A stretch of 5,553 nt of DNA from the IMG/VR virus record IMGVR_UViG_2541047097_000025; one strand, 5' to 3'. Below, piece by piece: positions 2,680-3,580 of the stretch. The position numbers and the translations under genes were made by a program. The notes beneath the pieces were generated by a model. That model made no database searches and was not told where the DNA came from. It saw nothing but the letters and a program-made list of their open reading frames with translations. Position 1 is the stretch's first letter, and every line of letters starts with the position of its first letter. The stretch is from a virus. Its lineage: Duplodnaviria; Heunggongvirae; Uroviricota; Caudoviricetes.

Positions 2680-2964
2680 TTATTCATTGCCGATATTCAC
2701 CTTTATCGCGAACACCTTTACCGGTTTATCACCGAAGTGCGGATGTGTGATTGTCTTGATTTCATATCCGTCATACGGAACATCAATTCTTCGGCTGGAA
2801 TCGTCGCGCTTCGGATATCCCTTTGTGATAATCAGGCGGTCATACTCGCGGAACATAATTCGCTTATTCCAGTAGTCATTAAACAGGCGATACTCTTCCG
2901 TTTTCTCTCCGCGAATCATGGCATCGAAGTATTCACCTTTAACGGCAAGTTGCAGGTTAGCCAC
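2680..2964 (-). CDS. ASCH/DUF3850-like domain protein
   Basis: The translation (KGEYFDAMIRGEKTEEYRLFNDYW...EYDRLIITKGYP) resembles phage ASCH-like proteins. The preferred start is GTG 2962-2964, with a strong SD (AGGAGG) 6 nt upstream, and it overlaps the stop of the upstream DUF551 gene. The longer ORF-track start at 3045 would overlap that gene by about 90 nt. Confidence 0.62.
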   Translation of the reverse strand: MANLQLAVKGEYFDAMIRGEKTEEYRLFNDYWNKRIMFREYDRLIITKGYPKRDDSSRRIDVPYDGYEIKTITHPHFGDKPVKVFAIKVNIGNE

Positions 2965-3580
2965 GGTTAACCTCCTGCGGCGGTTCTGGTAGCGGCATCC
3001 AGTGAGTTGCTTGCTCAATACCATTACCCGGCTTAATCGTTGCATCTCCGCGCCGAAAGGTGCTTCCGGTATAGCGTGCGGAGCATATTAGCGGTTCAAC
3101 CAGAGAGCTATCGAAATTCACCGAAATAAGCACGTTCTGGCCCTTTTCAGGCATTCGATCACTACAGCTTATCCAACTATCCGGAGTTACCGGAGAGTTA
3201 CCAGCCTCATAAGCGGATTTCATCCAGTGCGTAAGCGTTTCGATGCTTACACATCCGCAATCAACGTCTATTTTTTCTTTTTGTTCTGACAACCATTCCT
3301 GGAATGACAGCTTGGCAGTCTGGCTTGCTGGATCAATTCGTGGCAGGCCGATATATAGTGGTACATTTCCCGGCTCCATCGAATTGTCGGGACAAATAAA
3401 CGTGTTACAACCATATTTAACGAGCTCAATTCCCACTGTGTCGATAGTGGCGAATGGTTCAGTGGTCAATGCAGTCAACGCAATTTCATAAGCACGGCGC
3501 TCAATATTATCTCGCACGTCCAGGCTGCCGATTCGCTCTTTGATTTCTTTAATCATTTCTTTGTCGGTGAACGTTGTCAT
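2957..3580 (-). CDS. DUF551 domain-containing phage protein with uncharacterised N-terminal domain
   Basis: The C-terminus (WISCSDRMPEKGQNVL...ATHWMPLPEPPQ) has the DUF551 signature HWMPLPEPP. The ATG at 3578-3580 has an SD (AAGGA) 7 nt upstream, and the upstream gene's stop TAA lies 3 nt before it. Confidence 0.8.
   Translation of the reverse strand: MTTFTDKEMIKEIKERIGSLDVRDNIERRAYEIALTALTTEPFATIDTVGIELVKYGCNTFICPDNSMEPGNVPLYIGLPRIDPASQTAKLSFQEWLSEQKEKIDVDCGCVSIETLTHWMKSAYEAGNSPVTPDSWISCSDRMPEKGQNVLISVNFDSSLVEPLICSARYTGSTFRRGDATIKPGNGIEQATHWMPLPEPPQEVNRG

What the first reader, a model, noticed from the sequence alone, without database searches (positions are those of the whole stretch)
2957..3580. 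DUF551 protein with an unrecognised 130-residue N-terminal domain
The C-terminal HWMPLPEPP signature is clear, but the N-terminal domain (MTTFTDKEMIKEIKERIGSLDVRDNIERRAYE...) matches nothing I recognise. DUF551 occurs fused to varied N-terminal domains in prophages, which hints at a modular effector or targeting architecture of unknown function.
Basis: partly seen in the sequence, partly recalled or inferred. Interest (0 to 1): 0.4.

Follow-up and report, generated by a model that had tools for sequence, protein, structure and literature searches.

The report
Mosaic phage gene ending in DUF551
This is the already-catalogued hypothetical gene L0065 of Shiga-toxin phage 933W; its "unknown 130-residue N-terminal domain" is really three separately inherited small cassettes, joined to the DUF551 domain at a 50-base stretch of DNA that is identical in many different phage genes and seems to act as a recombination joint.

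Summary
A 207-codon ORF lies at 2957-3580 on the minus strand, and Pfam DUF551 matches residues 135-202 (E 1.8e-23). The window is wrbA plus the integrase end of a 933W/Sp5-type Stx prophage. The ORF is 933W L0065, identical in about 100 phage records.

No Pfam, NCBIfam, PDB or fold-search match covers residues 1-134, but they are not one domain. They are three cassettes:
- A (1-43): a helical-hairpin leader under strong purifying selection (pN/pS 0.1).
- B (44-82): one of at least 12 alternative classes.
- C (92-125): a conserved "KIDVDCGCV" mini-module.

The cassettes occur in many combinations. An exhaustive search finds A and C separately, and only 37 of 146 representatives have DUF551. 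Residues 83-207 share 95% DNA identity with the 3' part of an Ea22-DUF551 gene, with a sharp breakpoint at codon 82/83.

New here: the 5' edge of DUF551 is a 50-nt stretch without synonymous variation across about 30 unrelated gene contexts. It is flanked by 25 upstream and 16 downstream sequence classes in 60 combinations. I read it as an in-frame recombination joint, which would explain why DUF551 has so many partners.

Function remains unknown. Interest is low to moderate.

The parts
2957..3580 (-). Whole ORF, 207 aa plus stop; this is 933W L0065 ('EaA-like', DUF551 domain-containing protein)
3588..3592 (-). AAGGA Shine-Dalgarno 7 nt before the ATG. The stop of the upstream gene L0066 (3584-3586) lies between it and the ATG, indicating translational coupling.
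3452..3580 (-). Cassette A (aa 1-43): conserved N-terminal leader, predicted helical hairpin (H6-19, H26-39). It heads a hyper-mosaic protein family.
   Evidence: pN/pS 0.09-0.10 with pS 0.38 over 36-37 distinct DNAs; starts at residue 1 in 87 of 90 representatives; AF2 pLDDT 60-81; phrog_5117/3323
3335..3451 (-). Cassette B (aa 44-82): variable cassette ending in VPLYIGLPRI; one of at least 12 unrelated alternative classes found at this position
   Evidence: divergent homologs of this class; AF2 pLDDT below 50; pN/pS inconclusive (0.81 from 5 DNAs)
3308..3334 (-). Junction J1 (aa 83-91, DPASQTAKL; family motif EPVSQTxKL). The DNA similarity to Ea22-DUF551 genes begins here.
3206..3307 (-). 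Cassette C (aa 92-125): FQEWLSEQKEKIDVDCGCVSIETLTHWMKSAYE, a conserved helix / CGC loop / helix mini-module found behind many unrelated N-termini
   Evidence: 57 of 146 representatives, at positions 5-245; pN/pS 0.25; also in ~144-kb Klebsiella phages
3150..3199 (-). 50-nt DNA-invariant patch (codons N128 to P144: NSPVTPD(S/G)WISCS(D/E)RMP) at the 5' edge of DUF551; proposed in-frame recombination joint. It contains an interrupted 10-bp inverted repeat.
2975..3178 (-). DUF551 (PF04448), aa 135-202: predicted small beta-barrel with five strands
2967..3334 (-). Block (aa 83-207) that is 95% identical in DNA to the 3' part of an unsplit Ea22-C-DUF551 gene (P0079; L004 6451-6818). Similarity stops at codon 82/83.
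2680..2964 (-). Downstream ASCH-domain gene (933W L0064, using the RefSeq start). Its GTG start overlaps the L0065 stop codon (GTGGCTAA).
   Evidence: found downstream in 18 of 80 related loci
3584..3871 (-). Upstream gene L0066 (95 aa, phrog_2821), translationally coupled to L0065
   Evidence: found upstream in 27 of 80 related loci

Best explanation
The ORF is a genuine, full-length, non-essential early gene (933W L0065) in the leftward, N-antiterminated operon of a 933W/Sp5-type Stx prophage integrated at wrbA. Its product is not 'a novel domain plus DUF551'. It is a chain of four small, separately inherited cassettes: A, a 43-residue helical-hairpin leader; B, a ~40-residue variable cassette; C, a ~35-residue conserved mini-module with a CGC loop; and D, the DUF551 small beta-barrel. 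The cassettes are joined by short recurring junction motifs. The present combination arose by recombination: residues 83-207 (C+D) are the 3' part of an Ea22-DUF551 gene, and residues 1-82 (A+B) come from the 'leader' family. DUF551 has so many N-terminal partners because the first ~50 nt of its coding sequence are kept identical at the DNA level across otherwise unrelated genes. This gives homologous recombination (phage Red or host RecA) an in-frame joint at which upstream cassettes and downstream DUF551 cores are re-assorted. SHOWN: the gene structure, the cassette boundaries, the combinatorial distribution, purifying selection on A and C, the DNA breakpoint, the invariant patch, and the reassortment of its flanks. 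INFERRED (about 0.25 confidence): the protein is a non-enzymatic adaptor. The constant leader would provide self-association or docking. The variable cassettes and the Tudor/SH3-like DUF551 barrel would bind a host or phage macromolecule, modulating host physiology or the lysis-lysogeny outcome in the way reported for the neighbouring exo-xis genes such as Ea22.
Confidence: 0.7

Rival explanations
1. One reading: residues 1-130 form one novel, autonomous N-terminal domain that is fused as a unit to DUF551.
For: No known family matches residues 1-134. The A-B-C arrangement is kept with several different DUF551 variants (59 + 14 proteins). One 139-aa protein (P0161) has A-, B- and C-like segments at 47% identity and no DUF551, so A-B-C can travel together.
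Against: A and C occur separately in almost all other representatives (75 + 13 with A only, 42 + 14 with C only, 1 with A+C). C+D occurs without A+B behind Ea22 N-termini. The DNA similarity breaks sharply at codon 82/83. At least 12 unrelated cassettes replace B. Two AF2 runs show no compact domain.
Confidence: 0.08
2. The PGAP reading: the 207-codon ORF is an accidental in-frame fusion of gene remnants. Only a short DUF551 protein (65 aa from Met143, or 140 aa from Met68) is made, and the first 44 codons are a dead fragment of another gene.
For: RefSeq annotates exactly this in FORC_044 and in NC_004913/NC_004914. Shorter forms starting at Met68 are annotated in some genomes (P0064, P0124-P0136). 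Cassette B has pN/pS 0.81. AF2 confidence is low for residues 41-91.
Against: The DNA is identical to records where the full ORF is called, so the split is an annotation choice. Met143 has no upstream SD in the printed context, and starting there removes the nearly invariant W136-S140 motif of DUF551. Met1 has an SD and is coupled to the preceding stop codon. The frame stays open over 207 codons in relatives that have diverged to 50-80% identity. A and C are under purifying selection. B has divergent but recognisably homologous relatives.
Confidence: 0.08
3. The 50-nt patch is invariant because it is itself a functional nucleic-acid element, for example an RNA hairpin affecting translation or stability, or a protein-binding inverted repeat in DNA. 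On this reading it is not conserved through use as a recombination joint.
For: The patch contains an interrupted 10-bp inverted repeat (AACTCTCCGG/CCGGATAGTT). The 81-nt RNA folds at -25.6 kcal/mol, z -1.97, with 5 of 200 shuffles folding as well. The substitutions seen are mostly non-synonymous, which fits nucleotide-level rather than peptide-level constraint.
Against: The z-score is modest. There is no Rfam match. No covariation test is possible because the sequence does not vary. The flanks on both sides re-assort freely (60 combinations, four-gamete pairs), which is what a recombination joint predicts and an RNA element alone does not. The two explanations are not mutually exclusive.
Confidence: 0.15
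4. The family is a polymorphic host-takeover, counter-defence or exclusion system. A constant leader carries diversifying C-terminal 'warheads', and the cassette turnover reflects an arms race.
For: There is extreme cassette diversity behind a constant, selected leader. The gene sits in the accessory int-proximal region, co-oriented with other small early genes. Occasional partners include a Lar restriction-alleviation domain and dATP/dGTP pyrophosphohydrolase. The DUF551 cores are themselves highly variable (16 downstream classes).
Against: No match to PADLOC defence models. No enzymatic or toxin domain in this protein. No obligatory partner gene. No experimental phenotype found in the literature searched.
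Confidence: 0.2

Closest known systems
933W L0065 / VT2-Sakai H0075 (GenBank AAD25410.1), annotated 'similar to EaA protein of bacteriophage P22'
   Same: Identical DNA and protein, and the same position between L0066 and the ASCH gene L0064, upstream of xis-int at wrbA.
   Different: Nothing; it is the same gene. Its function has never been determined.
Ea22-DUF551 proteins ('Ea22 V2' of Stx phages, PMC10834534; e.g. P0079, and phi24B vb_24B_6c)
   Same: Residues 83-207 (junction, cassette C, patch, DUF551) are 91% identical in protein and 95% in DNA to the C-terminal part of P0079. phi24B Ea22 shares the patch and DUF551 at 51%. PMC8614690 already regarded L0065 as the detached C-terminal domain of Ea22.
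   Different: L0065 has no Ead/Ea22 N-terminal or coiled-coil region (no PF13935 hit). Residues 1-82 come from the unrelated leader family. In this window the Ea22-like gene (4650-5447) is a separate ORF 1 kb upstream. P0079 lies in the nin region, not the exo-xis region.
P22-type EaA protein (e.g. ANM45434.1 of Salmonella phage 101962B_sal5)
   Same: Shares the GNSPVTPxGW junction, the identical DNA patch and DUF551 (aa 121-203, 42% identity). Also an int-proximal early accessory gene.
   Different: The N-terminal ~150 residues are unrelated, so the 'EaA' label rests on DUF551 alone.
E. coli K-12 CPS-53 YfdS (DUF551 protein)
   Same: Carries DUF551 according to PMC4776307 and PMC10834534; a prophage accessory protein.
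   Different: Not compared by sequence here. The reported phenotypes (H2O2 sensitivity of the deletion; part of the yfdQRST set that inhibits DnaA-dependent initiation when over-expressed; PMC4776307) have not been tied to the DUF551 domain and cannot be transferred.
Short conserved 'linker' sequences at mosaic boundaries of lambdoid phages (modular-genome hypothesis; discussed in PMC2327257)
   Same: A short identical DNA segment flanked by unrelated sequence on both sides, with re-assorted flanks.
   Different: Here the joint is intragenic and in frame, at a domain boundary, so it shuffles protein domains rather than whole genes. The recombination itself was not demonstrated.

Membership tests
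DUF551 (Pfam PF04448) | Match to the Pfam profile above its gathering score | tested here: met
   83.6 bits against a cut-off of 22, E 1.8e-23, residues 135-202 matching profile positions 1-68 of 68
DUF551 (Pfam PF04448) | Conserved edge motifs (PDGW-I-S-C-S-x-R-M-P at the start, HWMPLPEPP at the end) | tested here: met
   W136, I137, S138, C139, S140, R142, P144, W194, L197, P198 and P201 are nearly invariant in 133 sequences; both motifs are present in the window protein
DUF551 (Pfam PF04448) | Common fold (no solved structure is known to me; predicted small beta-barrel) | tested here: inconclusive
Ead/Ea22-like family (Pfam PF13935) | Ead/Ea22 N-terminal segment and coiled-coil region | tested here: not met
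   No PF13935 hit in the 207-aa protein, whereas the neighbouring ORF 4650-5447 hits it at E 1.5e-35. Only residues 83-207 resemble the C-terminal part of Ea22-DUF551 proteins.
P22 EaA orthologue | Similarity over most of the protein length | tested here: not met
   Only residues 121-203 align (42% identity); the N-terminal parts are unrelated
'Leader' family (unnamed; phrog_5117 / phrog_3323 / phrog_660 N-termini) | MTTFTDKELIKEIKERIGSLDVRDNIERRAYEIAL... at residue 1 | tested here: met
   phrog hits over residues 1-46 and 1-77; 90 of 146 representatives carry it, 87 of them at position 1; 49 distinct proteins in 80 loci
Known anti-phage defence system components (PADLOC-DB) | Match to any PADLOC profile | tested here: not met
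   No hit at E<=0.01 for this protein
Recombination 'linker' at a mosaic boundary | Short DNA segment conserved at synonymous sites and flanked by unrelated sequence | tested here: met
   0% synonymous differences over ~16 codons in 30 genes, against pS ~0.38 in the leader of the same genes
Recombination 'linker' at a mosaic boundary | Independent re-assortment of the two flanks | tested here: met
   25 upstream and 16 downstream flank classes in 60 combinations; all four combinations present for up0/up7 with dn2/dn3
Recombination 'linker' at a mosaic boundary | Crossovers demonstrably occur in the segment | not testable with these tools
   Needs phage crosses or long-read population data

The most novel reading that the evidence does not exclude
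The 50-nt synonymous-invariant patch encoding NSPVTPDGWISCSERMP is a maintained, dedicated in-frame shuffling joint, possibly helped by its inverted repeat. With it, enterobacterial temperate phages combinatorially re-assort N-terminal cassettes with variant DUF551 beta-barrels. The result would be a polymorphic family of early proteins with a constant leader and exchangeable binding modules, engaged in an arms race with host or rival-phage targets.
Probability: 0.3. Interest if true: 0.55.

Novelty: already known. Interest (0 to 1): 0.3.

Why it matters
The gene itself has been catalogued since the 933W genome and needs no new category, so the finding as stated is ordinary. The follow-up has three uses. 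(1) It corrects the picture of the protein: three cassettes, not one orphan domain. It also flags inconsistent RefSeq annotation of an identical ORF. (2) It offers a concrete and testable reason why DUF551 appears behind so many different N-termini: a DNA-level invariant joint of about the homology length used in Red recombineering (from my own knowledge), located in an operon that also encodes exo, bet and gam. (3) It defines two small conserved modules, the leader and the 'KIDVDCGCV' cassette, that no curated library covers and that could be targeted in functional work on the poorly understood exo-xis/ea region of Shiga-toxin phages. That region is reported to influence the lysis-lysogeny decision and hence toxin release.

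Tried and rejected
(1) P0156-P0160 (134 aa) first looked like a standalone copy of the whole N-terminal region (98% coverage, 47% identity). The alignment showed they share only the leader and then diverge, so I rejected that reading. P0161 is the only true A-B-C-like protein without DUF551 that I found.
(2) Idea: the B cassettes (EPVAW...xPLYxxPP) are cryptic DUF551-like modules. An initial hhalign probability of 97% was an artefact: a B cassette had contaminated my DUF551 set. With a clean set the probability is 1.3%, the same as a reversed control. Rejected.
(3) The claim that 933W ea22 was split, leaving its C-terminal domain in L0065 (PMC8614690), holds only loosely for phi24B Ea22 (only aa 126-207 match, at 51%). 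It holds well for P0079-type genes.
(5) NCBIfam and PADLOC gave nothing for this protein.
(6) Rfam at E<=1 gave only a chance Leu-leader hit outside the ORF. Promoter-like sites were fewer than in shuffles. No meaningful repeats were found.
(7) The pN/pS figures for motif-collected junctions are biased by ascertainment, so I used only their pS values and repeated the test without motif selection of the patch itself.
(8) The second match of the query reported in the 933W record was not located. The nin region, 12-22 kb, is negative.
(9) A second AF2 run with a cleaner MSA did not improve the N-terminal model.
(10) Literature searches for L0065/EaA function returned nothing beyond the two Donaldson-lab papers.

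Full report
WHAT IS THERE. The window holds wrbA (1-579, minus strand) followed by the integrase-proximal end of a lambdoid prophage. All genes are on the minus strand:
- int (576-1910)
- xis (1939-2238)
- a small zinc-ribbon-like ORF (2309-2620)
- an ASCH-domain gene (2680-2964)
- the target ORF (2957-3580)
- three to four small ORFs (3584-4498)
- an Ead/Ea22-like gene (4650-5447)
The whole window is 99.9% identical to O157:H7 chromosomes at wrbA. The target ORF is 100% identical in about 100 phage records, including 933W (L0065, 'similar to EaA protein of bacteriophage P22'), VT2-Sakai, Stx2 phage I/II and Min27.

CHECK OF THE OBSERVATION. The coordinates are exact, but the ORF is on the minus strand. 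It encodes 207 residues starting MTTFTDKEMIKEIKERIGSLDVRDNIERRAYE and carrying HWMPLPEPP at 193-201. Pfam DUF551 matches residues 135-202 end to end (E 1.8e-23). Residues 1-134 have no match in Pfam, NCBIfam, PADLOC or PDB sequences. Only PHROGs of unknown function cover them, and they do so piecewise: phrog_5117/3323 over residues 1-46, phrog_660 over 1-77, and phrog_924/7704 from about 125 onward.

IS IT ONE GENE? RefSeq/PGAP splits the ORF into a 65-aa DUF551 protein and a 44-codon 'partial' pseudogene. The DNA there is identical to the window, so this is an annotation choice and not a frameshift. Several things support the full-length ORF:
- Met1 has an AAGGA Shine-Dalgarno 7 nt upstream, and the preceding gene's TAA stop is 4 nt before the ATG.
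- The next gene's GTG start overlaps the stop codon (GTGGCTAA).
- PGAP's Met143 start removes the nearly invariant W136-I-S-C-S140 motif of DUF551.
- Hundreds of full-length homologs at 50-96% identity keep the frame open.

THE N-TERMINAL REGION IS NOT ONE DOMAIN. BLAST coordinates against 160 retrieved relatives break at about residues 46, 83 and 126. Alignment and segment searches define these segments:

| Segment | Residues | Description |
|---|---|---|
| A | 1-43 | Conserved leader |
| B | 44-82 | Variable cassette |
| J1 | 83-91 | Junction EPxSQTxKL |
| C | 92-125 | FQEWLSEQKEKIDVDCGCVSIETLTHWMKSAYE |
| J2 | 126-136 | Junction GNSPVTPDGW |
| D | 135-202 | DUF551 |

Eleven different combinations of A, B, C and D occur among the 160 proteins. 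In 80 viral loci retrieved with the N-terminal part there are 49 distinct proteins of 86-527 aa. All start with the same leader and continue with interchangeable cassettes joined at recurring motifs (xPLY..PPxPVVP, GWNACRAAML, EPVSQTYKL, GNSPVTPDGW). Several stop after one cassette and have no DUF551. At least 12 unrelated sequence classes occupy the B position.

An exhaustive phmmer search of 1.84 billion cluster representatives with residues 1-131 gave 377 hits and none below 1e-30. The hits match either residues 1-46, at the hit's own N-terminus, or residues ~81-131, at internal positions. Of the 146 listed representatives analysed:
- 88 carry A without B or C
- 56 carry C without A or B
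- 1 carries A+C and 1 carries A+B
- only 37 have DUF551 at all
Other partner domains are dATP/dGTP pyrophosphohydrolase (4), Ead_Ea22 (3), Lar, an Rv2179c-like exonuclease, a tail-fibre assembly protein and IspD (1 each). One 139-aa protein (P0161) does have A-, B- and C-like segments at 47% identity without DUF551, so A-B-C can travel together, but this is the exception.

SELECTION. Across 36-37 distinct leader DNAs, pS is 0.38-0.39 and pN 0.03-0.04 (ratio 0.09-0.10). The leader is therefore a constrained protein segment and not merely a homology patch. Cassette C gives a ratio of 0.25 from 7 DNAs. Cassette B gives 0.81 from 5 DNAs, which is too few to interpret. B does have divergent homologs with a conserved pattern (xID...G.DAxxWPV...xLYxGLPR).

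ORIGIN OF THIS COMBINATION. Window 2967-3334 (residues 83-207) is 95% identical in DNA to the 3' part of an unsplit Ea22-C-DUF551 gene (P0079). That gene follows a TraR-like gene in the nin region of other prophages. The similarity ends exactly at codon 82/83. phi24B Ea22 shares its N-terminal 157 residues with the window's Ea22-like ORF (95%), but only the junction plus DUF551 with L0065 (51%). This refines the statement in PMC8614690 that an insertion split 933W ea22 and left its C-terminal domain in L0065. P22-type EaA shares only residues 121-203 (42%).

STRUCTURE. Full-length AF2 (133-sequence MSA) gave a mean pLDDT of 57.7. DUF551 forms five strands at pLDDT 66-88. Helices 6-19 and 26-39 reach about 60-70. 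Residues 41-91 are below 40. Helices 93-100 and 113-125 are at about 55. A second run on residues 1-134, with an MSA limited to sequences carrying the homologous B cassette, gave the same elements and a mean pLDDT of 49. Both MSAs are shallow, so low confidence is not proof of disorder, but nothing indicates a compact 130-residue domain. The fold searches gave:
- Foldseek against the PDB: nothing (best E 0.79).
- BFVD: DUF551 proteins from very diverse tailed phages, matched over the barrel only.

THE UNEXPECTED PART: A DNA-INVARIANT JOINT. I anchored 30 distinct leader-family genes on the WISCS motif. The ~16 codons SPVTPDGWISCSERM show 0% synonymous differences, whereas many leader codons in the same genes show 30-60%. 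At the nucleotide level, AAC TCT CCG GTA ACT CCG GAT RGT TGG ATA AGC TGT AGT GAK CGA ATG CC (window 3150-3199, minus strand) is essentially identical in 31 different contexts. These include phi24B Ea22, the nin-region Ea22-DUF551 gene and a Salmonella P22-type EaA. The sequence on both sides differs completely between contexts, and the rare substitutions are nearly all non-synonymous.

Among 107 complete host ORFs, 25 upstream-flank classes and 16 downstream-flank classes occur in 60 combinations. All four combinations are present for several class pairs, and there are at least 8 N-terminal types. The patch is present in 943 of 5,426 complete E. coli genomes, with up to 5 copies per genome and 62 copies on plasmids. 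Other conserved motifs of the family have ordinary synonymous divergence (pS 0.36-0.40).

The simplest reading is an in-frame homologous-recombination joint of the kind long postulated for lambdoid mosaic boundaries (short conserved flanking sequences; PMC2327257), here placed at a domain boundary. It directly explains why DUF551 is 'portable' (PMC10834534). A rival is conservation for a nucleic-acid function: the patch holds an interrupted 10-bp inverted repeat and its RNA folds at z = -1.97. There is no Rfam match, and covariation cannot be tested.

CONTEXT AND FUNCTION. In the 80 loci the gene is always co-oriented with its neighbours in the int-proximal part of the early-left operon. It has no obligatory partner: L0066 is upstream in 27 of 80 loci, ASCH downstream in 18 of 80, and xis/int downstream in 13-19 of 80. 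No promoter-like site lies in or just before the ORF beyond chance, and two terminator-like hairpins follow the ASCH gene.

I found no experimental data on this protein. The nearest functional statements concern other DUF551 carriers. YfdS deletion gives H2O2 sensitivity, and yfdQRST over-expression inhibits replication initiation (PMC4776307). Ea22 favours lysogeny (PMC10834534). My functional proposal is therefore marked as inference at about 0.25 confidence: a non-enzymatic adaptor in which a constant leader provides docking or self-association, and exchangeable cassettes plus a Tudor/SH3-like barrel provide binding.

VERDICT. The gene is already known (933W L0065), and its mosaic nature and the portability of DUF551 are in the literature. 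The additions here are the cassette map, the evidence that the leader and cassette C are independent, selected modules absent from curated libraries, and the 50-nt synonymous-invariant joint. Interest is 0.3.

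Noticed in passing
window 3150-3199 (minus strand); also L003, L004, L088 and L089-L208: A 50-nt stretch at the 5' edge of the DUF551 coding sequence has no synonymous variation across about 30 unrelated gene contexts, and its flanks re-assort freely. It is present in 17% of complete E. coli genomes, with up to 5 copies per genome, and contains an interrupted 10-bp inverted repeat.
   Followed up: yes
window 2957-3580; L001 5957-6580 (FORC_044), NC_004913.3, NC_004914.3: RefSeq/PGAP annotates this identical ORF inconsistently. In many genomes it is a full-length 'DUF551 domain-containing protein'. In others it is split into a 65-aa protein (from Met143) plus a 44-codon 'partial' pseudogene, or it is started at Met68.
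   Followed up: yes
window 4650-5447 (minus strand), residues 153-251 of the Ead/Ea22-like protein: The C-terminal half of the Ea22-like protein (933W L0069) matches the PADLOC profile 'DpdH' (PDLC02890) at E 1.5e-36 over profile positions 13-111 of 127. I did not check whether this reflects a real link to the Dpd DNA-modification/defence system or a prophage sequence that entered that profile.
   Followed up: no
window 1-579 (minus strand), wrbA: The wrbA ORF next to the prophage starts [16 protein letters not shown], and its Pfam FMN_red match begins only at profile position 17. Its stop-proximal neighbour int overlaps its start (576-579). The 5' end of wrbA therefore appears to be replaced by prophage-derived codons (a hybrid, N-terminally truncated WrbA), yet RefSeq annotates it as an intact NAD(P)H:quinone oxidoreductase.
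   Followed up: partly
L010 (IMGVR_UViG_638275567_000001), ORF starting at 3001: A 299-aa in-frame fusion of L0065 with the downstream ASCH protein (…HWMPLPEPPQRLTVANLQLAVKGEYF…). This is consistent with a 1-nt deletion in the GGAGG just before the overlapping stop/start. It could be a sequencing error or a natural fusion.
   Followed up: partly
L059 and L063, ORF starting at 3001: A 527-aa leader-family protein in which DUF551 runs on into a 3'-5' exonuclease-like sequence (MIDLETMGKNKDAPIVSIGAV…). The representative set also contains a member with an Rv2179c-like exoribonuclease domain.
   Followed up: no
Klebsiella phages KP12, KP13-26 and vB_Kpn_K54_rec2 (hits H60, H78, H79): Cassette C (residues 91-134, the KIDVDCGCV module) occurs at 64% identity in ~144-kb lytic Klebsiella phages, well outside the lambdoid prophages.
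   Followed up: no
window 2627-2678 (minus strand): Two consecutive terminator-like hairpins with T-runs lie directly after the ASCH gene and before the next small ORF, inside what should be the N-antiterminated leftward early transcript.
   Followed up: no
window 2309-2620 (minus strand), 933W L0063: This small protein has a CxxC...CxxC pattern and weak similarity to the ClpX C4 zinc finger (Pfam E 0.015; NCBIfam ClpX E 0.002, far below the cut-offs).
   Followed up: no
L004-L006 (E. coli prophages), 5783-6825: The pair 'TraR/DksA-like zinc-finger gene followed by an Ea22 gene' seen at the right edge of the window (exo-xis region) recurs in the nin region of other prophages, between the replication genes and Q. 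There it sits next to a second Ea22-like gene and a hok/gef toxin gene.
   Followed up: partly
AF125520.1 (933W): The megablast search reported two places matching the query in the 933W record. The second was not found in 1-7 kb or 12-22 kb and remains unlocated. PMC10834534 lists 933W as carrying both Ea22 V1 and the DUF551-bearing V2.
   Followed up: partly
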